64,000 nt of DNA, from contig DGWA01000011.1 in NCBI GenBank assembly GCA_002395105.1, positions 9,840 through 73,839 on the forward strand, written 5' to 3'. This document shows positions 1,200 to 47,901 of the stretch, in pieces (the first letter of the stretch is position 1; each line of letters opens with the position of its first letter). The stretch is from Rickettsiales bacterium UBA4270 (GTDB taxonomy: Bacteria > Pseudomonadota > Alphaproteobacteria > Rickettsiales > Deianiraeaceae). The notes under the pieces are model-generated. The model ran no database searches. It was not told the DNA's origin and saw only the letters and a list, made by a program, of their open reading frames with translations. A program made the translations under genes and the position numbers.

Positions 1200-4100
1200 T
1201 TATAATATCAATTGGCTTGTTATAACAAAACACATTCTTTTAAAATGTTTTTGCTCTTCTTCTGTGAAAATTCTGTCTTTCCTTTTTTTTAGATATTCTT
1301 GAACTAGTTTATATGAACCAATTTTAAACATCCACAAACACTCTGGTATAACCAAGTATTGATATTTATTAATCCATACTCTACAAGCTGGAAAAATAGT
1401 GCTATTATTATCTTGCTTTCTAATACAACAGTTGTTATCAAAACTACACTTATCAAAGCCACAACCATCAAAACAACAACTAATGTTTAAGTTTTCTACT
1501 TTCTCCATCTTAACATTTTCTATCTTGTTTTTACAATCTGATGCTTGATGTTTATCCTCTAAAACACAAGCATGTTTGATTGCTTTGGTGTCGTCATTAT
1601 CTTTATCTGTTTCGTTATACAAAAGAGATAAAGCTTCAAAATCCACACACTCAAACTTCTCTACATCAGCCACCTCCATCAGATGAAGATGTCTTAATGT
1701 TTCTCCTCGTTTAGCATATTCAAAAAACTCATCTACACTCTCAGGATAAGGAACTCTTGGGAAACCCATTTCTAAGAATACTTTATATTTGTTTCTGTAT
1801 TCTTTATCATTTAGTATTCCATATATATAATCAAACAAATGAAGTTCATTGAACTTGGTTTTGTCTGTATATTTGTTCCAAAAACCACTAACACGAAGGC
1901 CATTGTGAAAGCCAGCAAAGGCGTCATTGTCGCTTTCAACAAAAGGTATTCCAAGTTTTTCACTGAATTTTTTCAACAAGCTTGGTGAAAAGTTTACGTG
2001 GCGGTGTGCTATAAACTCGCTTGGTTGAGAGCTAGCAGCACTTAGGTCAGCCTGTTTATAAACGCCAGCAGCATTGGTTGCTTGTCGGTTGATTGCACCC
2101 CCGCCAGCTTCGCTGGCGGTGCCGGCCGTTCCGGCGGGATTTGTTTGGTTTGTGAAGGTGTAGAGGGGAAAAATACTATCGCCACCGCAAGAAAAATGCA
2201 TGTCAACAAGTTTGTTAACAATAAAACAATCTATACTATATATTTTTGATGCTATAATGAATATGTTGTTTTGATTTATAAATTGTCTCATTGTGTTTCC
2301 TGACGGACAACAATAGAAACCCTTATAGCCAGTATAACAAGTCCATCTATCGTCAAAAACACGATAAGAATATTTCATAATATAATTTTTATTTTTTATC
2401 AAATCTTTTTTAGCGCTTTTAATTGACCAACAATATTCAGTTTGAATATTATATTTTTCTTTTATCTCTTCTTCTTTTAAAGATTTAAAATCGTTAACAA
2501 TATTCTCGATTTTCTCTTTTTCAAATTTTACAGTTAAATCATCTTTTTTACTAAGACAACCGACGTTACTTGTTGAAAACAAATTTTTTATATTAAACAT
2601 CTTCAACCATTCTTCCTCGCCAGTTCTATCTTTCGGTTTGAATAAGTAATTTTCATTTCCATCTGGTATCCACTCATTGTCAAATTGAACAGGTTTATGG
2701 TTGTTAAAATCTAAGTAATCTGATGTACTATTATTTTCAGAAGTTTTAAAAATATCATGCTCAATAAGCCACATAAACTTATCATATCTAGCACCAATTA
2801 AATCTTTGTAATGGACCGTCGCTAATGGTTTTGTGTAAGTTTTGTTGTTTTGTTTTGCTGTGTATATATCTTCATCATGGGGCTTTTTGACGAAGATGGA
2901 AATGGCTACACCTTGCATTATGTTAAATGGATTTTGATCGTTGTTGTTTTTCATTAGATCTTTGTCACGTCTTGCATCACCATGAAGATTAAAGATATAG
3001 ATATCATCAAATGTTTTAAGCAGATGTTTTCTCATGCCACGATGGGTACAACCATCAAGATAGGAGTTGTTGGTTATGAACGAAAGAATGCCTCTATCGT
3101 TCTTTTCAATATAGTTCTCACCATATCTTATGAATTTAACATAGTCATCTGAAAGAGGCTTGATGTTTTTTTCTCCTTCTAAGAGGTTGATTATTTTATT
3201 TCCATTTTTATCTTTTTCATACTTATAATCTTCAAGCAGGCCCATTATCCACTTACCTTTATTCATTGTTGAAGCATTATACGGCGGATTTCCCATTACA
3301 ACCATAATGTGTTTTTGTTGCTTGATTTTACGAGCCATTGTACCTTCACGTTCAATGATATCACCAAAAAGATCTTGTGTTGCACTTGTGTCTGTTGAAT
3401 CATTCCAGTCATCAAGAGAGTTAGTAAGAAATATGTTTGGATTAAATTTATTATTATCTTTGTCTGCTATATGGTAGCCAGAGTATTTTTCTATTGCTTC
3501 GTTTATGTTGTTTGTCTTGCAAAATCTCTTCCAAATAAACCCTTTCAGGAGGAGTTTTTTATCTTGCGGATCTGGAAAAATATTATTGTTTTTAATATAT
3601 TCTGAAATAAAATTTGCAGCATTTGTACCAAATTGTTGAAGTATCATATCTATCTGTAAATGAGCTAAGACATACGGACACATCATTATCTCAAAAGCAT
3701 TAATATTCTTTAAAAGATGTTTTTCTACAAAAGAACTCCACTGATTATATTTACCAGTTTTCATGAATTTTTCAAATGCCAATCTTATGTATTCAACAAC
3801 AAAAGTTCCTGTTCCAGTAGCTGGATCAAGAACTTGAACTTGTGGTTGTGATTCAACTGGTTTGCCAAATTTGTCAATCTTTCCCTCTTTATTATAACCA
3901 ACTTCATCTGTGTTAATTATCCCATCTTTAATGTTAAAAACATTGATTAAAATTAAGTCTATCTGCCTAACTATGAAATCAACAATTGGTTGAGGAGTAT
4001 ACCAAACGCCCATTTCAGCTCTGAGTTTTGGGTCATATTTTTCAAGAAATGTCTCATAGAATTCAATAATTGCCGTAGAAGTTTTATTCTTTCTAGCAAA

Positions 4101-4781
4101 ATCATCAAGTATCTTAACAACGTCTGTTTGAGCCATCATTTCGATTGTTTTATTTATTATTAGTTTTATTTTTTCATCCATATAAAATGGATTGTTTTGT
4201 GTGTAAAAAAGCTGTTGTAGAAAGCTATTTGATGCTGGTATGTTTTCAACAATTCTTTCAAATTTGAAGTCTTTTTTGTCTTTGTCGCCATAGTATAGTT
4301 TAGCTATAAATATGCCATAGATTGTCATTTGTGCCTTGATGTCTGCAAATTCTTCTTTTGTTGTGTCGTTCTTTAAATTTTTCTTTATTTGTTGTAGTTC
4401 GTTTTCTATTACGTATGAATTTTGTTTATCAAATAACTTTAATATTTCATCTCTTAATAATTTAGCTTGTTTAGCCATCCTGAACGATAAAGTATCGGCA
4501 CTTGTTATTTTTGTTGTATAATTGAGGAATTCCACTAAGATATCATAAAAATTTTCAAAATTTTCTGGAAGTATTTTAATCTTATTATTTACTAACTCTC
4601 CAATTTTAGCTGATCTTATTTCATTTTGTTTATAGTACCATCTCCATTCAAGGAAGTTAGTGATTAATATGTTTTCATATGTTTGTTTATATTTATTGAA
4701 TTGTTCTTGAAAATCTAAATCATCAAGATCTTTGTCTATGTCTTTTGCTTCAATTATTCCTACATCACATAGGCCTTTCAT
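1200..4781 (-). CDS. Type IIG / type ISP-like N6-adenine DNA methyltransferase with C-terminal specificity region; the 5' end is out of frame (see 4903-4968)
   Basis: 1193-aa ORF. SAM motif I 'VLDPATGTGTF' lies at about 3802-3830. Motif IV 'GNPPY' has NPPY at 3279-3290. The C-terminal 'FPLY...NFSPSLLKKFSEKLG...GFPRVPYP' pattern is typical of type ISP/IIG C-terminal domains. 'IEAK' right after the annotated Met is the ExK half of a PD-(D/E)xK nuclease motif. Confidence 0.8.
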   Translation of the reverse strand: MKGLCDVGIIEAKDIDKDLDDLDFQEQFNKYKQTYENILITNFLEWRWYYKQNEIRSAKIGELVNNKIKILPENFENFYDILVEFLNYTTKITSADTLSFRMAKQAKLLRDEILKLFDKQNSYVIENELQQIKKNLKNDTTKEEFADIKAQMTIYGIFIAKLYYGDKDKKDFKFERIVENIPASNSFLQQLFYTQNNPFYMDEKIKLIINKTIEMMAQTDVVKILDDFARKNKTSTAIIEFYETFLEKYDPKLRAEMGVWYTPQPIVDFIVRQIDLILINVFNIKDGIINTDEVGYNKEGKIDKFGKPVESQPQVQVLDPATGTGTFVVEYIRLAFEKFMKTGKYNQWSSFVEKHLLKNINAFEIMMCPYVLAHLQIDMILQQFGTNAANFISEYIKNNNIFPDPQDKKLLLKGFIWKRFCKTNNINEAIEKYSGYHIADKDNNKFNPNIFLTNSLDDWNDSTDTSATQDLFGDIIEREGTMARKIKQQKHIMVVMGNPPYNASTMNKGKWIMGLLEDYKYEKDKNGNKIINLLEGEKNIKPLSDDYVKFIRYGENYIEKNDRGILSFITNNSYLDGCTHRGMRKHLLKTFDDIYIFNLHGDARRDKDLMKNNNDQNPFNIMQGVAISIFVKKPHDEDIYTAKQNNKTYTKPLATVHYKDLIGARYDKFMWLIEHDIFKTSENNSTSDYLDFNNHKPVQFDNEWIPDGNENYLFKPKDRTGEEEWLKMFNIKNLFSTSNVGCLSKKDDLTVKFEKEKIENIVNDFKSLKEEEIKEKYNIQTEYCWSIKSAKKDLIKNKNYIMKYSYRVFDDRWTCYTGYKGFYCCPSGNTMRQFINQNNIFIIASKIYSIDCFIVNKLVDMHFSCGGDSIFPLYTFTNQTNPAGTAGTASEAGGGAINRQATNAAGVYKQADLSAASSQPSEFIAHRHVNFSPSLLKKFSEKLGIPFVESDNDAFAGFHNGLRVSGFWNKYTDKTKFNELHLFDYIYGILNDKEYRNKYKVFLEMGFPRVPYPESVDEFFEYAKRGETLRHLHLMEVADVEKFECVDFEALSLLYNETDKDNDDTKAIKHACVLEDKHQASDCKNKIENVKMEKVENLNISCCFDGCGFDKCSFDNNCCIRKQDNNSTIFPACRVWINKYQYLVIPECLWMFKIGSYKLVQEYLKKRKDRIFTEEEQKHFKRMCFVITSQLIL
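1995..2140 (-). other. GC-rich, hairpin-containing in-frame patch inside the methyltransferase gene
   Basis: It encodes 'NPAGTAGTASEAGGGAINRQATNAAGVYKQADLSAASSQPSEFIAHRH'. Codons end in G/C far more often than elsewhere (aat ccc gcc gga acg gcc ggc acc gcc agc gaa gct ggc ggg...). Perfect hairpins are CCGCCAGC-ttc-GCTGGCGG (2101-2119) and GCCGG-ccgtt-CCGGC (2121-2135). Confidence 0.7.
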
Positions 4782-4902
4782 TACTGTAAAATCAGGCCTT
4801 CCCGGATCTTTATTTGTTTTTTCAACTATAATTTTACACTCACATTTTAGTTTTTCAAAAATGCTGTTAAACAGCTCTTCTACAATTGGATAATAAGAAC
4901 GT

Positions 4903-4968
4903 TCAACACTCCCCCCCCCCAGGAACGTTTAATTTACTAGATATTCCATCGAGGTATTTATTTATCAT
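4903..4968 (-). pseudogene. Out-of-frame 5' segment of the type IIG restriction-modification gene (true N-terminus, ATG at 4968)
   Basis: ATG 4968 reads 'MINKYLDGISSKLNVPGGGEC*' with the tract at 10 G. Removing one G gives MINKYLDGISSKLNVPGGGSVERSYYPIVEELFNSIFEKLKCECKIIVEKTNKDPGRPDFTV, fused in frame to MKGLCDVGIIEAKD... This reconstructs about 1255 aa and supplies the 'PD' half of PD...ExK. Confidence 0.65.
4911..4920 (-). repeat. Homopolymer C10 (G10 on the coding strand) inside the 5' end of the restriction-modification gene
   Basis: Counted directly: exactly 10 C, flanked by t (4910) and a (4921). Such a run is highly unusual in this AT-rich sequence. Confidence 0.95.
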
Positions 4969-4981
4969 TTTCACTTTTAAC

Positions 4982-5009
4982 AAGTTAAAAAATAAAATAC
5001 TATTGTCAA
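4982..5009 (-). promoter_or_regulatory. Candidate promoter for the restriction-modification gene (TTGACA-N16-TAACTT on the minus strand)
   Basis: The minus-strand TTGACA is the reverse complement of 5004-5009. TAACTT is the reverse complement of 4982-4987. The ATG lies at 4968. The -10 is weak and -10-like hexamers are common in AT-rich DNA. Confidence 0.25.
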
Positions 5010-5046
5010 ATTTTGACTTTTATAATTAATAGCTAATTCTTTTTAT

Positions 5047-5487
5047 ATGAAAAAATTAAGAATTTGTTTATCTTTTATATTTTCTGGATTTTGTTGCGCA
5101 ATAATCGGTACTGCATTTTATATGGCAAGTAGTTATATTCCTTCGTTAAAACAACAATATTCAAATGCAGATATATTCTTTCAAAACATTAATCCAAGAG
5201 ATTTTCTTTATGGCTTAGAACCATTTATTCTGTCATTAGTTTTATTAACTATGTTTCTATTTTTTAAGAATTGCTATTTTTTTAAAAAAAAATTAACAAA
5301 CATTCTTTCTATATCACTATTTTTTGGATTATTATTTTCTTTACTAATTTTGCCAGTATTTATATTGTTATTCGCGATGATTAAAATTTCCTTAAATGTC
5401 ATTCTATATTGGCTTTTGCAAAGATTTTGCCAAGCTTTCATTTGTGGAATAATTTATTCAAAATCTATTAAGTATTGCTTTTTATAA
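5047..5487 (+). CDS. Hypothetical multi-pass membrane protein
   Basis: 146-aa ORF with several long hydrophobic stretches (IFSGFCCAIIGTAFYMA, FILSLVLLTMFLFF, LFFGLLFSLLILPVFILLFAMI). No recognisable family. Confidence 0.45.
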   Translation: MKKLRICLSFIFSGFCCAIIGTAFYMASSYIPSLKQQYSNADIFFQNINPRDFLYGLEPFILSLVLLTMFLFFKNCYFFKKKLTNILSISLFFGLLFSLLILPVFILLFAMIKISLNVILYWLLQRFCQAFICGIIYSKSIKYCFL

Positions 5488-5512
5488 TTTTCAATTAGAT
5501 ATTATTTGTTTT

Positions 5513-6421
5513 ATGAATTTTAAGAAAATTATCATTTCAGCATTTGTTATCTTTGTTCCGATGTGGATTTTAGCATATATTTTTGCATATATTTTTTTTA
5601 CAAGCGATTTTTGTAACAGAACTTGGCCTCATGATTACAATAACAAACACTGTATTCGTTACGGAAATAAGTTTTTTCGTATTTTAGAACAAAACCCTAT
5701 AATAAGCGTATACACACACAACAGGATTATGAAAAATGATGTTTTACATCAGAAATATGTAAATCAAGTTTATGAGATTTTAGCCTTTATTGATTATGTT
5801 TTTACAAAGTACAATATGAAATACGTATTAGAATTCGGAACTGAACTTGGTGCAATAAGACATAAAGGTTTTATTCCATGGGACGATGATATAGATATAG
5901 TTTTGTTTGAAAATGAAGAAAAAGTTGCGCAAGCTTTTGAAAAAGAAATAAAAGCGAATAATCAAGAAAATAGATTTGTCTTTATAAGAGGAAGAGACAA
6001 TAAGCATTTATCAACGAAATGGCCAATAATAAGAATTAAAGATGGCATAGTTAATGATATGTTTAATAAGTATATTAAATGTAAATTTAATAATAAAGAA
6101 AAGTATTATCTTAGCTCAGATGGTACTTGTGGCAAAATTATTTATAAAAATTTTAGTTTTAGTTATAATGAAATTTTTCCTTTAAAAAAGTGTGTTTTTG
6201 GACCATTAAAACTGCCTTGTAAAAATAATGTAAAAGAAGCATTTAATTTTTACTACGGTGACGATTGGGAGCGTATATTATATACATCTAACCACACTCT
6301 CAACAAGAAAAGAAACAAAAAAATAGTTTTAACAAAAGAATTGCTAAAACCAGCTCTTCCTACAGACGATGCTTGGAAATATTGGGTAGATAAAAAAAAA
6401 TCATTAAATATAAAGAAATAA
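5513..6421 (+). CDS. LicD-family (fukutin-like) phosphotransferase with an N-terminal membrane anchor
   Basis: 'LEFGTELGAIRHKGFIPWDDDIDIVLFE' matches the LicD signature GTLLGAvRHkGFIPWDDDiDi. N-terminal hydrophobic helix 'IIISAFVIFVPMWILAYIFAYIFF'. Confidence 0.7.
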   Translation: MNFKKIIISAFVIFVPMWILAYIFAYIFFTSDFCNRTWPHDYNNKHCIRYGNKFFRILEQNPIISVYTHNRIMKNDVLHQKYVNQVYEILAFIDYVFTKYNMKYVLEFGTELGAIRHKGFIPWDDDIDIVLFENEEKVAQAFEKEIKANNQENRFVFIRGRDNKHLSTKWPIIRIKDGIVNDMFNKYIKCKFNNKEKYYLSSDGTCGKIIYKNFSFSYNEIFPLKKCVFGPLKLPCKNNVKEAFNFYYGDDWERILYTSNHTLNKKRNKKIVLTKELLKPALPTDDAWKYWVDKKKSLNIKK

Positions 6422-6459
6422 TACATAAAAATATACAAAATAAAACTTGACAATTATTA

Positions 6460-6469
6460 CCCCCCCCCC
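6460..6469 (+). repeat. Second homopolymer C10, intergenic
   Basis: Counted directly (c at 6460 plus nine c at 6461-6469, then g). It lies between TTGACA (6447-6452) and TAGACT (6472-6477), 22 nt upstream of ATG 6491. Confidence 0.95.
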
Positions 6470-6581
6470 GCTAGACTTTTGTAATATTTTATGAAATTAC
6501 AAAAACTTTATATTAAAAATTTTAGAGGTATTAAGGAAAACTATACAAGTTTATCAAAAATCAAAATATGCAAATTTTTAT

Positions 6582-46431: not shown

Positions 46432-47901
46432 ATGAAAAAAAAACAAAAAAATACAGAAGATTATCTAAATCAAAAAAAAGAACAAAAAATTGCAAATCTT
46501 GCGAAAATAAAAATGAGATATTTCCTTAGAAAAGCATTTTCAATAATAAATCCAGCTACAAAAATTAAATGGAATTGGCACCTAAATTACTTGTGTGACA
46601 CACTAGAAGCTGTTGCAGAAGGAAAAATAAAACGGCTAATTATAAATATTCCACCTAGATATCTAAAATCAATAATTTGTTCGGTTAGTTTCCCAGCATG
46701 GATACTCGCAAAAGATCCTTCAAAAAGAATAATAGTCGCAAGTTATTCGAAAATTTTAGCAACAAAGCATTCACAAGATACAAGAATAATTATGCATTCA
46801 AATTGGTACAAAAAAAATTTTTACAAAACAGTAATTGCCGAAGGAAGAGACGAGAAAAATAAATTCTGTACAACTGAAAATGGATTTAGATTTTCTACAT
46901 CTGTAAATGGTACATTAACTGGAGAAGGTGGAGATATATTAATAGTTGATGATCCTCATAATCCAATCGGAATATATAATAAATCAAACAGAAAACGAAC
47001 AATAAATTGGTTTACTGGCGTCTTCTCTTCTCGTCTTAACGATAAAAATACAGGAGCAATTATAATAATAATGCAAAGACTGCACGTAGATGATCTATCT
47101 GGATACATTATATCAAAAAATACTGAAAATAATTGGTTTATAATAAATTTACCAGCAATCGCAGAGCAAGAAAAAAAATATTACCTATTTGATAAATTAT
47201 ATAAAATCCGTAAAGTTGGTGATATATTGCATCCTCTAATGGAAAAAAAAACAACATTAGATAATATAAAAAAAGACATAGGTGAATACAACTTTGAAGC
47301 ACAATACCAGCAAAATCCAGTAACATTAGATGGAAATATGATAAAAAAAGATTGGCTAAAATATTTTGATTTATCAGATAAAGAAAACATATTTAAAAAT
47401 GACAAAATAAACTATTGTATTAGTATTGATTGCGCCTCTGGACTTGGAACCGAAAATGATTTTACAGCAATAGCTGTTTTTGCAATTTTTAGTAATAAAT
47501 TTTACATATGCGATATGTATAGACTTAAAATTGCATATCCAGAATTAAAAATAAAAATTGAAGAAATAATCAATAAATACAAGCCAAATAACGTTTTAAT
47601 TGAGGATAAATCAAATGGTTCATCTATGATACAAGATCTACAACAAAAATATACAAATATTATACCAATTAAACCAACTAAATCTAAAGAATGTCGAGTT
47701 AATGATATACTAACAACCTTAGAAGCAGGACATATACTAATTGCAGACAAAGAAAAATGGACACAAGAATTAGAAATCGAATTGTTATCCTTTCCAGCAT
47801 GCAAACATGACGATCAAGTTGACGCAATATCGCAGTTTATAAACTGGTATAATTTAAGTAGAAAAAATGAAGTCAAACCTCCAAAAATAAGAAGAATATA
47901 A
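46432..47901 (+). CDS. Phage terminase large subunit-like protein (ATPase plus RNase H-fold nuclease)
   Basis: 'WNWHLNYLCDTLEAVAEGKIKRLIINIPPRYLKS' (Walker A-like), 'GGDILIVDDPHNP' (Walker B), 'QRLHVDDL', C-terminal nuclease acidic residues 'ISIDCASG...DFTAIAV', 'LIEDKSNG', 'HDDQVDA'. Confidence 0.8.
   Translation: MKKKQKNTEDYLNQKKEQKIANLAKIKMRYFLRKAFSIINPATKIKWNWHLNYLCDTLEAVAEGKIKRLIINIPPRYLKSIICSVSFPAWILAKDPSKRIIVASYSKILATKHSQDTRIIMHSNWYKKNFYKTVIAEGRDEKNKFCTTENGFRFSTSVNGTLTGEGGDILIVDDPHNPIGIYNKSNRKRTINWFTGVFSSRLNDKNTGAIIIIMQRLHVDDLSGYIISKNTENNWFIINLPAIAEQEKKYYLFDKLYKIRKVGDILHPLMEKKTTLDNIKKDIGEYNFEAQYQQNPVTLDGNMIKKDWLKYFDLSDKENIFKNDKINYCISIDCASGLGTENDFTAIAVFAIFSNKFYICDMYRLKIAYPELKIKIEEIINKYKPNNVLIEDKSNGSSMIQDLQQKYTNIIPIKPTKSKECRVNDILTTLEAGHILIADKEKWTQELEIELLSFPACKHDDQVDAISQFINWYNLSRKNEVKPPKIRRI

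What the first reader, a model, noticed from the sequence alone, without database searches (positions are those of the whole stretch)
4903..4968. G10 homopolymer frameshifts a type IIG/ISP-like restriction-modification gene: candidate phase-variable switch separating nuclease from methylase
The annotated 1193-aa ORF starts at an internal Met. An ATG at 4968 opens the true N-terminus but hits TGA after the G10 tract (4911-4920). With 9 or 12 G the reading becomes continuous (about 1255 aa). That restores '...GRPDFTV-MKGLCDVGIIEAKD', a complete PD-(D/E)xK nuclease motif of which the current ORF keeps only the ExK half. Homopolymer slippage is the classic mechanism of phase-variable R-M systems (phasevarions) in Haemophilus, Neisseria, Helicobacter and Mycoplasma. 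Here the OFF frame could still allow internal initiation of a methylase-only product, which is a speculative but testable twist.
Basis: partly seen in the sequence, partly recalled or inferred. Interest (0 to 1): 0.72.

Follow-up and report, generated by a model that had tools for sequence, protein, structure and literature searches.

The report
Phase-variable poly-G switch in restriction gene
A run of ten G's near the start of a combined DNA-cutting and DNA-methylating defence gene knocks it out of frame, and related rumen metagenome assemblies carry 6 to 10 G's at the same spot, so this is most likely a reversible on/off switch of a well-known kind, found here in an uncultured rumen bacterium.

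Summary
A G10 tract lies on the minus strand at 4911-4920. The ATG at 4968 opens a frame that stops at TGA 4905-4903. With G9 or G12 the frame runs 1255 or 1256 codons to the stop at 1200.

The gene encodes a single-chain Type IIG/IIL restriction-modification enzyme. It has an N-terminal PD-(D/E)xK nuclease, a helical connector, an NPPY adenine methylase and a target recognition domain (TRD). DrdV is the closest solved structure. There is no helicase, so it is not Type ISP.

In about ten independent metagenome assemblies of close relatives, the same codon position holds different tract lengths:
- **In frame (ON):** G6 and G9 (four assemblies).
- **Out of frame (OFF):** G7, G8 and G10.

Flanks are often 98-100% identical. 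The downstream frame is intact in every OFF allele. Homologues without the tract are invariant. This supports slipped-strand phase variation, as in Campylobacter cj0031 (G9 ON, G10 OFF).

The tract does not separate nuclease from methylase. It sits at codons 17-19, upstream of the whole nuclease core. The proposed methylase-only product from Met-4781 is not supported. That Met is not conserved in the other tract-bearing alleles, and it has no usable ribosome-binding site.

A second length-variable C tract lies 1.5 kb away at 6460-6469.

Verdict: a real feature and a new member of a known kind. Interest is moderate.

The parts
4911..4920 (-). G10 homopolymer tract (C10 on the + strand) covering codons 17-19 (Gly-Gly-Gly) of the R-M gene. 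This is the hypermutable switch. This length is out of frame (+1).
   Evidence: Homologous tracts of G6, G7, G8, G9 and G10 in related loci.
4966..4968 (-). True ATG start codon of the R-M gene.
   Evidence: The N-terminus read from here aligns with full-length homologues P0002-P0005. The same start is used in the ON alleles L005, L011, L012 and L013.
4903..4905 (-). Premature TGA reached in the G10 (OFF) frame after 21 codons.
1200..4968 (-). Complete Type IIG/IIL restriction-modification gene (1255 codons at G9). It is currently split by the frameshift into a 21-codon leader and a 1236-codon open downstream frame.
   Evidence: Pfam Type_ISP_C plus N6_Mtase. PADLOC REase_MTase_IIG. DrdV 7lo5 by profile at 5e-68 and by Foldseek at 3.8e-34.
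4740..4904 (-). Catalytic core of the N-terminal PD-(D/E)xK nuclease: E22 (ERSYY, 4904-4890), P58-D59-F60 (RPDFTV, 4799-4782) and E73-x-K75 (IIEAKD, 4757-4740).
   Evidence: Invariant columns in A1. Motif present in 117 of 119 homologues. Weak but motif-consistent alignment to the DrdV N-terminus. The predicted fold is H20-38, b42-46, b57-61, b64-71, H81-93 in homologue P0002. Coordinates.
4779..4781 (-). Internal ATG (Met63), the start of the mechanically listed 1193-aa ORF. It is not a conserved start.
   Evidence: Residue 63 is not conserved. In allele B the gene caller had to use a GTG about 140 codons in.
3276..3830 (-). Methyltransferase core: motif I LDPATGTGTF (3830-3801) and motif IV GNPPYN (3293-3276).
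   Evidence: for coordinates. Alignments to DrdV, LlaBIII and LlaGI across these motifs.
1266..2582 (-). C-terminal TRD region (Pfam Type_ISP_C, residues 796-1234). Residues about 753-930 are the allele-specific segment.
   Evidence: Windowed identity against the L001 allele.

Best explanation
The G10 tract is a hypermutable simple-sequence repeat, a contingency locus. It sits at codons 17-19 of a single-chain Type IIG/IIL restriction-modification gene.

Slipped-strand mispairing during replication adds or removes G's. Lengths of 6, 9 or 12 keep the frame and give the full enzyme: N-terminal PD-(D/E)xK nuclease, helical connector, gamma-class N6-adenine methylase and TRD. Lengths of 7, 8 or 10 end translation after about 21-28 codons. 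Restriction and methylation are then lost together.

The window carries an OFF allele (G10, +1). Because methylase and nuclease are one polypeptide with no companion methylase, switching OFF is not lethal. Switching back ON is expected to be tolerated as in DrdV/MmeI-type enzymes, where cleavage needs several DNA-bound enzyme molecules.

What is shown: the tract, the frames, the domain content, the tract-length polymorphism between populations and the integrity of OFF alleles.

What is inferred: reversible high-frequency switching within a clone, enzymatic activity, and the biological pay-off (phage defence versus DNA uptake or epigenetic heterogeneity).
For: 1. The tract and frames are as described.
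2. At the same codon position, independent assemblies carry these lengths:
   - G6 in frame: L011.
   - G7 out of frame: L008.
   - G8 out of frame: L001 and L002.
   - G9 in frame: L005, L009, L012 and L013.
   - G10 out of frame: the window with L003, and L010.
3. Pairs with 98-100% identical flanks differ only in the tract: L001/L010 (8 vs 10), L005/L011 (9 vs 6) and L008/L009 (7 vs 9).
4. In every locus, ON or OFF, the downstream frame is open to the natural stop or to the contig end. Correcting L001 to G9 gives an intact 1322-aa ORF.
5. The tract is kept in three divergent 5' allele classes whose flanks are only 46-73% identical. Tract-less homologues (about 55% aa identity) have an identical intact 5' end in four independent assemblies and no G/C run of 6 or more nearby.
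6. Two contigs break exactly at the tract (L007, L014), as expected if reads are heterogeneous.
7. The tract encodes a loop between helix 2-13 and helix 20-38 of the predicted nuclease domain. This explains why GG, GGG and GGGG are all tolerated.
8. GGG is a rare codon here (5.3%), and runs of 10 or more are about 4e-4 expected.
9. Precedent: C. jejuni cj0031, a Type IIG enzyme that is ON at G9 and OFF at G10 (PMC4889913).
Against: - No read-level data were available. Within-population heterogeneity and reversibility are not shown directly.
- All comparisons are between consensus assemblies, some of which may derive from the same samples (window/L003; L001/L002).
- Illumina homopolymer errors could contribute plus or minus 1 to a few calls.
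- No activity or methylation data exist for this enzyme or for any close relative.
- The host organism is uncultured, so mutation rates at G tracts are unknown.
Confidence: 0.8

Rival explanations
1. Plain pseudogene. A one-off +1 frameshift killed the gene in this lineage, and the tract is incidental.
For: The window allele is out of frame. About half of the related assemblies are also out of frame. Natural disrupted MmeI-family genes are known (PMC2731913).
Against: The 1236-codon downstream frame is fully open in the window and in all other OFF alleles. OFF alleles lie on both sides of the ON length (7, 8 and 10). In-frame alleles occur on near-identical haplotypes. The methylase core is 98-100% identical between window and L001, which indicates purifying selection.
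Confidence: 0.05
2. Sequencing or assembly artefact. The true length is G9 and the homopolymer was miscalled.
For: Homopolymers of 9-10 are error-prone. Two contigs end at the tract.
Against: The same length was recovered by independent assemblies: window and Logan L003 both G10, L001 and Logan L002 both G8, L012 and L013 both G9. The lengths span 6-10, not just plus or minus 1. The second tract varies 9/10/12 with 100% identical flanks. Tract-less homologues are identical across four assemblies.
Confidence: 0.04
3. In the OFF frame, translation restarts inside the gene (Met-4781 or a near-cognate codon next to the tract). This yields a nuclease-defective but methylase-active protein, so the switch toggles R+M+ against R-M+ rather than ON against OFF.
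For: A product from Met63 would lack E22 and P58-D59 but keep the connector, methylase and TRD. A sigma-70-like match (TTGAAA-16-TAAAAT) lies at 4858-4831 upstream of that ATG. In allele B at G10, a TTG abuts the tract in the main frame, and the gene caller used it. In DrdV, N-terminal residues K8 and D15 form the nuclease-nuclease interface needed for cleavage. Loss of the first 16 residues could therefore plausibly spare methylation.
Against: Met63 is not conserved. It is Thr in the tract-bearing allele compared (L001 type) and Thr or Leu in two of the three tract-less homologues. The next usable start in allele B is a GTG about 140 codons in. Reading the sequence, GGAAGG ends 15 nt before ATG 4781, which is too far to serve as a ribosome-binding site, and the upstream stop is about 120 nt away. 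Promoter-like matches are not enriched over shuffles in this AT-rich region (22 found against 15.9 +/- 4.4). The availability of an adjacent alternative start depends on allele and tract length, so it is not a designed feature.
Confidence: 0.07
4. Leaky OFF state. RNA-polymerase or ribosome slippage on the G10 run restores the frame in a fraction of transcripts, so the gene is expressed at a low level rather than switched off.
For: Long homopolymers can promote transcriptional slippage. This is general knowledge and was not tested here. The tract is long and lies at the 5' end.
Against: Nothing in the sequence points to a programmed site. There is no stimulatory structure: the only hairpin-like match is a 5-bp stem at 4875-4863. 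DNA-level length variation is directly observed and is sufficient to explain the data.
Confidence: 0.04

Closest known systems
Campylobacter jejuni Cj0031 (cj0031/cj0032), a phase-variable Type IIG R-M enzyme (PMC4889913)
   Same: Single-polypeptide nuclease-methylase of about 1240 aa. It has an intragenic poly-G tract that is ON at G9 and OFF at G10. Both activities are lost together in OFF. Alleles differ in the TRD, and only some alleles carry the tract. The window gene shows the same features.
   Different: In cj0031 the tract lies at nt 2573 of 3732, between conserved domains. Here it lies at codons 17-19, before the nuclease core. The proteins belong to different Type IIG subfamilies: cj0031 has Eco57I/TaqI_C-type domains, whereas this gene has a DrdV/Type_ISP_C-type TRD. 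The host here is an uncultured rumen bacterium, not a Campylobacter. No experimental data exist for it.
DrdV (PDB 7lo5/7lvv) and the MmeI family, Type IIL single-chain R-M enzymes
   Same: Same domain order: N-terminal PD-ExK nuclease, helical connector, NPPY adenine methylase and C-terminal TRD. There is no companion methylase. DrdV is the best profile hit (5e-68) and the best fold hit (3.8e-34). Architecture as described and in PMC2731913.
   Different: Sequence identity is only about 17%. DrdV and MmeI are not reported in the papers I read to carry a homopolymer switch. The disrupted natural MmeI-family genes described there include stop-codon mutations in NmeAIII and DraRI. Recognition site, cut position and single-strand methylation are untested for the window enzyme.
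[quoted passage not shown]
   Same: Homologous methylase and TRD (Pfam Type_ISP_C 6.9e-48; profile hits 1e-60 and 1.5e-52).
   Different: No helicase-like ATPase motor. Alignments cover only the methylase-TRD part. The region between nuclease and methylase is a short all-helical connector.
Phase-variable Type III mod and Type I hsd genes (phasevarions) of Haemophilus, Neisseria, Helicobacter and others (PMC5909438, PMC7383803)
   Same: A simple-sequence repeat in the coding region switches a DNA methyltransferase ON and OFF.
   Different: Those are multi-subunit systems in which the methylase can act without the nuclease. A regulon effect has not been examined here.

Membership tests
SSR-driven phase-variable (contingency) locus | Uninterrupted homopolymer or short repeat of hypermutable length (G/C of about 8 or more) inside the reading frame or promoter | tested here: met
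   G10 at 4911-4920 within codons 17-19. About 4e-4 such runs are expected by chance.
SSR-driven phase-variable (contingency) locus | Changes of repeat number switch between a full-length and a truncated product | tested here: met
   G6, G9 and G12 give a full-length product. G7, G8 and G10 stop after 21-28 codons.
SSR-driven phase-variable (contingency) locus | Repeat number differs among closely related strains while the flanks are conserved. Both ON and OFF alleles exist, and OFF alleles are otherwise intact. | tested here: met
   Lengths 6-10 in about ten assemblies. Three pairs have 98-100% identical flanks. All downstream frames are open.
SSR-driven phase-variable (contingency) locus | High-frequency, reversible switching within a clonal population | not testable with these tools
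   Needs raw reads or cultures. The only hints are contigs that break at the tract (L007, L014).
Type IIG/IIL single-chain R-M enzyme (MmeI/DrdV type) | N-terminal PD-(D/E)xK endonuclease motif | tested here: met
   E22, P58-D59 and E73-x-K75 are invariant. The motif is present in 117 of 119 homologues. The PD/ExK residues align with the DrdV N-terminus, though weakly (i-Evalue 4.5). The alpha-beta-beta-beta-alpha fold is predicted with pLDDT 75-91 in homologue P0002.
Type IIG/IIL single-chain R-M enzyme (MmeI/DrdV type) | Gamma-class N6-adenine methyltransferase motifs (motif I, NPPY) in the same polypeptide | tested here: met
   LDPATGTGTF at aa 380-389 and GNPPYN at aa 559-564. Both align with DrdV, LlaBIII and LlaGI.
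Type IIG/IIL single-chain R-M enzyme (MmeI/DrdV type) | C-terminal TRD fused to the methylase, with whole-length similarity to a characterised member | tested here: met
   Type_ISP_C at 796-1234. PADLOC REase_MTase_IIG at 1.3e-171. DrdV matches over nearly the full length by profile and by fold.
Type IIG/IIL single-chain R-M enzyme (MmeI/DrdV type) | No companion methyltransferase or specificity gene next to it | tested here: met
   Neighbours are a 146-aa membrane protein, LicD and small unknown ORFs. None gives a methylase hit. L001 has only a 41-aa C5-methylase fragment downstream.
Type IIG/IIL single-chain R-M enzyme (MmeI/DrdV type) | Cleavage at a fixed distance from an asymmetric site, with protective methylation of one strand only | not testable with these tools
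   Requires biochemistry or a methylome.
Type ISP R-M enzyme (LlaGI/LlaBIII) | Helicase-like ATPase motor between nuclease and methylase | tested here: not met
   No helicase or ATPase domain in Pfam. LlaBIII and LlaGI align only from the methylase onwards. Residues about 134-345 are predicted as a helical connector.
Phasevarion (phase-variable methylase controlling a regulon) | Methylation state changes the expression of other genes | not testable with these tools
   Needs transcriptomes of ON and OFF populations.

The most novel reading that the evidence does not exclude
The poly-G tract may be more than a simple ON/OFF switch. It could be placed so that out-of-frame lengths still allow initiation just downstream, at a near-cognate codon abutting the tract or at an internal Met. 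That would produce a protein lacking the N-terminal helix or part of the nuclease core. The protein would still methylate, so restriction would phase-vary while self-protection or epigenetic marking persists. This would take place in a Rickettsiales-like, probably protist-associated rumen bacterium, a group in which SSR phase variation did not turn up in my literature searches.
Probability: 0.07. Interest if true: 0.7.

Novelty: new member of a known kind. Interest (0 to 1): 0.42.

Why it matters
Homopolymer-driven phase variation of restriction-modification genes is textbook biology in a handful of host-adapted pathogens. Here the same device appears in an uncultured, low-G+C rumen bacterium. 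Its DNA ligase is nearest to those of Rickettsiales.

The case could be made from public metagenome assemblies alone. ON and OFF tract lengths sit on near-identical haplotypes. This shows that contingency loci can be recognised and partly validated in uncultured organisms by comparing assemblies.

It also flags a Type IIL enzyme family with naturally swapping TRD alleles. Practically, the annotated 1193-aa protein is a truncated artefact. The functional allele is 1255 aa.

If read-level data confirm heterogeneity, the locus would be a convenient marker for defence or epigenetic bet-hedging in the rumen microbiome.

Tried and rejected
- **Genome-contig scan.** A scan with the corrected protein found only a 28%-identical Nitrospirota homologue. 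The organism is not among the species representatives, so no named genome could be used.
- **NCBIfam.** No family matched the R-M protein.
- **Exact look-up of the G9-corrected 1255-aa protein.** The sequence is not in the collection. No ON version of this particular allele (type A) was found. The ON alleles found belong to allele types B and C.
- **Metagenome scan.** It returned only two loci. Most variants came from look-ups of neighbouring proteins.
- **Promoter/terminator scan of 4700-6800.** Promoter-like sites are not enriched over shuffles. I do not rely on the internal match at 4858-4831.
- **RNA fold of the second-tract region.** The z-score was 0.25, so there is no structure worth claiming.
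- **Pfam on the 11,117-aa ORF.** Only a marginal MORN hit.
- **Type ISP membership.** Rejected because there is no motor domain.
- **Alternative genetic code (TGA sense).** Considered and rejected. The 11,117-codon ORF and 96% coding density hold under table 11, and with TGA read as sense the OFF frame still ends at a TAA a few codons later (and reading).
- **Literature search for Rickettsiales plus homopolymeric phase variation.** None of the listed papers mentions Rickettsiales.

Full report
**1. The observation**

On the minus strand the sequence reads ATG(4968) ATA AAT AAA TAC CTC GAT GGA ATA TCT AGT AAA TTA AAC GTT CCT G10(4920-4911) AG TGT TGA(4905-4903). This is a 21-codon peptide, MINKYLDGISSKLNVPGGGEC*. 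The mechanical ORF list gives 1200..4781 (1193 aa), starting at an internal ATG. Deleting one G joins the two frames into a 1255-codon ORF that ends at the same stop. Adding two G's gives 1256 codons. The coordinates and the arithmetic of the finding are therefore correct.

The tract is not a chance feature.
- The window is 27% G+C.
- It contains no G or C run longer than 5 except this tract and a second C10 at 6460-6469.
- About 4e-4 runs of 10 or more are expected.
- GGG is only 5.3% of glycine codons in the window's genes.

**2. What the gene is**

The corrected protein has the following matches.
- Pfam Type_ISP_C at residues 796-1234 (6.9e-48), plus a weak N6_Mtase hit.
- PADLOC REase_MTase_IIG at 1.3e-171.
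- More than 2,600 homologues of about 1050-1150 aa, annotated 'DNA methyltransferase', 'N-6 DNA methylase' or 'type ISP restriction/modification enzyme'.

A 38-sequence profile of the family hits DrdV (PDB 7lo5) at 5e-68 over positions 378-1041. It also gives a weak N-terminal alignment that is consistent with the motif: query ...EHSYR...PDY...IEAKD against DrdV ...NESSVR...PDG...WESKD. LlaBIII and LlaGI match from the methylase onwards only.

An AlphaFold model of the full-length homologue P0002 (57% identical; mean pLDDT 74; N-terminal domain 75-91) has DrdV as its best fold match (3.8e-34), followed by LlaGI and LlaBIII.

The motifs are as follows.
- **Nuclease:** E22 (ERSYY), P58-D59-F60 and E73-x-K75. 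All are invariant in the alignment with P0002-P0005. The motif series is present in 117 of 119 homologues.
- **Methylase:** motif I LDPATGTGTF (aa 380-389) and motif IV GNPPYN (aa 559-564).

There is no helicase or ATPase domain, and residues about 134-345 are a helical connector. The enzyme is therefore a single-chain Type IIG enzyme of the Type IIL (MmeI/DrdV) architecture described. It is not a Type ISP enzyme. The 'ISP' label comes from the shared methylase-TRD module. No companion methylase or specificity gene is adjacent.

**3. Where the tract sits**

The three Gly codons are residues 17-19. In the model of P0002 this position is the loop between helix 2-13 and helix 20-38. Helix 20-38 carries the first conserved glutamate. 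It is followed by strands 42-46, 57-61 (PD) and 64-71 (ExK).

The tract is thus upstream of the entire nuclease core, not between nuclease and methylase. A loop position explains why in-frame lengths coding for GG, GGG or GGGG can all be tolerated. Relative to tract-less homologues (SGAG-ER, KSG-EE, PDSH-ER), the tract-bearing alleles carry a two-residue insertion here.

**4. Comparative test of phase variation**

Look-ups of the gene and its neighbours, plus one metagenome scan, recovered related loci from independent public assemblies. At the same codon position the tract lengths are as follows.

| Tract | Frame | Loci |
|---|---|---|
| G6 | in frame | L011 (JGI 3300041753) |
| G7 | out of frame | L008 (JGI Ga0247611) |
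| G8 | out of frame | L001 (ENA ERZ12289773, a 181-kb contig syntenic with the window) and L002 (Logan SRR12081293) |
| G9 | in frame | L005 (ERZ920175), L009 (Ga0310691), L012 (ERZ28613006), L013 (ERZ27280356) |
| G10 | out of frame | the window, L003 (Logan SRR5322641) and L010 (Logan SRR18765425) |

Further points bear on the interpretation.
- **Matched flanks.** Three pairs with 98-100% identical flanks differ only in the tract: L001/L010 (8 vs 10), L005/L011 (9 vs 6) and L008/L009 (7 vs 9).
- **Intact OFF alleles.** In every locus the downstream frame stays open to the natural stop or to the contig end. L001 corrected to G9 gives an intact 1322-aa ORF. None of the OFF alleles carries a second lesion.
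- **Tract retention.** The tract is retained in three 5' allele classes whose flanks are only 46-73% identical.
- **Internal control.** The tract-less homologue P0003 has an identical, intact 5' end (AAA TCA GGC GAA GAA) in four independent assemblies. Neither it nor P0005 has any G/C run of 6 or more within 6-13 kb.
- **Contig breaks.** Two short contigs begin exactly at the tract: L007 from the sheep rumen assembly AUXO01, and L014. This is what assemblers do at sites with heterogeneous reads.
- **Agreement between assemblies.** Independent assemblies agree with each other: window and L003 on G10, L001 and L002 on G8. This argues against random miscalls.

Together this meets every criterion for an SSR contingency locus that can be tested without reads. 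Within-clone reversibility is inferred.

**5. Mechanism**

Slipped-strand mispairing changes the number of G's.
- G6, G9 and G12 give the full-length bifunctional enzyme.
- G7, G8 and G10 give a 21-28-residue peptide and no enzyme.

Nuclease and methylase are one chain with no partner methylase, so both activities disappear together and OFF is safe. The same argument was made for cj0031. In DrdV, cleavage needs assemblies of several DNA-bound subunits. I infer from this that an OFF-to-ON switch could be survivable.

The closest precedent is C. jejuni cj0031. It is a 1243-aa Type IIG enzyme with a poly-G tract that is ON at G9 and OFF at G10. It has allele-specific TRDs, and only some alleles carry the tract (PMC4889913). 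All of these features recur here. The window and L001 proteins are 98-100% identical over residues 303-750 (the methylase) but only about 40% identical over residues 753-930 (a TRD segment). Their N-terminal 300 residues are also divergent. Meanwhile the LigA proteins of the two contigs are 100% identical. The gene is therefore a recombination-diversified specificity locus as well as a phase-variable one.

**6. The 'methylase-only' twist**

A product starting at Met63 (ATG 4781) would lack E22 and P58-D59 but keep the methylase and TRD, so the idea is structurally conceivable. The evidence is against a dedicated mechanism.
- Residue 63 is Thr in the tract-bearing allele compared (L001 type) and Thr or Leu in two of the three tract-less homologues.
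- In allele B the gene caller had to start at a GTG about 140 codons in.
- Reading the sequence, the only purine-rich element (GGAAGG) ends 15 nt before ATG 4781.
- From the same reading, the premature stop is about 120 nt upstream of that ATG.
- The sigma-70-like match at 4858-4831 is one of many in an AT-rich region where such matches are not enriched (22 found against 15.9 +/- 4.4).
- A near-cognate start abutting the tract exists only in some allele and length combinations: CTG in the window at G10 and TTG in allele B at G10, both read from the flanks listed. The TTG was used by the gene caller.

I keep the idea as a low-probability rival.

**7. Host and context**

The window is ordinary chromosome. 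It carries def, a MerR-family regulator, an aminotransferase, folK-folP, rpsB, tsf, lpxC, ligA, coaX, a VirB11-like ATPase and tRNA-Val. Coding density is 96% under table 11.

The nearest named LigA sequences are all Rickettsiales: Candidatus Deianiraea vastatrix at 47%, Rickettsiaceae and Wolbachia. One related contig comes from the sheep rumen metagenome AUXO01 (PMC4158751). Rumen-derived Rickettsiales MAGs are mentioned in PMC10847448.

The placement rests on one marker at modest identity and is tentative. My searches found no paper linking Rickettsiales with homopolymer phase variation.

**8. Verdict**

Phase variation is strongly supported by comparative data. The family is Type IIG/IIL, not ISP. 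The nuclease/methylase 'separation' and the internal-start product are not supported.

This is a new member of a known kind, and interest is moderate. The device is classical. The host lineage and the way it could be validated from assemblies alone are the new elements.

Noticed in passing
window 6460-6469 (+); L001 4075-4086; L010 3839-3850; L011 3124-3132: A second homopolymer, C10, lies 1.5 kb from the first in the 160-bp gap between the convergent licD-like gene and a 636-aa tail-anchored protein gene. It is C12 in L001 and L010 and C9 in L011, while the flanks are 100% identical. It lies between TTGACA (6447-6452) and TAGACT (6472-6477). The spacer is 19 nt at C10 and 18 nt at C9, so it looks like a promoter-spacer switch, but nothing obvious lies downstream.
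   Followed up: partly
window 6491-6581 (+): Directly after the second tract, an ATG opens MKLQKLYIKNFRGIKENYT.... This resembles the N-terminus of AriA/ABC-type defence ATPases (PADLOC AriA, E 0.0066, residues 1-23). There is no Walker A motif. The ORF runs antisense into the neighbouring gene and is broken in L010. It is probably the relic of a deleted phase-variable gene.
   Followed up: partly
window 12920-46273 (-): A single uninterrupted ORF of 11,117 codons takes up 52% of the window. It has no Pfam domain apart from a marginal MORN repeat hit. Its function is unknown.
   Followed up: partly
window 1266-2710 (-) vs L001 6001-9549: The R-M alleles are mosaic. The methylase (aa 303-750) is 98-100% identical between window and L001, whereas aa 753-930 (a TRD segment) is about 40% identical and the N-terminal 300 aa are 50-80% identical. 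LigA on the two contigs is 100% identical. This suggests TRD and allele exchange by recombination.
   Followed up: partly
L008 2496-2806; L001 about 5700-5900: Alleles B and C carry an insertion in the nuclease domain between the first strand and the PD motif. It is about 48 aa in L001. In L008 it is a 135-bp in-frame tandem repeat of 2.3 copies at 98% identity. This is a second length-variable element in the same gene.
   Followed up: partly
L007 position 1; L014 position 1; window 6392-6400: Short metagenome contigs start exactly at the poly-G/C tract. Two contigs (L006, L007) end at the same A9 run near 6392-6400. Assemblies appear to fragment at homopolymers in this genome.
   Followed up: no
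window 5005-5017: A perfect palindrome, GTCAAA-A-TTTGAC, lies in the 78-bp divergent intergenic region between the R-M start (4968) and the 146-aa membrane-protein gene (5047). It overlaps a TTGACA hexamer. It is only partly conserved in L001. It could be an operator.
   Followed up: no
window 5047-6421 (+): The two tracts bracket a two-gene cassette: a 146-aa multi-pass membrane protein and a LicD-family (phosphocholine transferase-like) protein. LicD-type surface decoration is itself phase-variable in some pathogens. No tract lies inside these genes here.
   Followed up: no
window 46432-47901 (+): A lone phage terminase large-subunit-like gene (TIGR01630, 1.7e-20) lies next to the giant ORF, with no other recognisable phage genes nearby.
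   Followed up: no
whole window; L001 10470-14169: Of 27 gene stops, 24 are TAA, 3 are TGA and none is TAG. In L001 the leucyl-tRNA synthetase-like region downstream of the R-M gene is called as several separate ORFs (586, 118, 62, 57 and 245 aa). This may reflect an insertion or gene decay.
   Followed up: no
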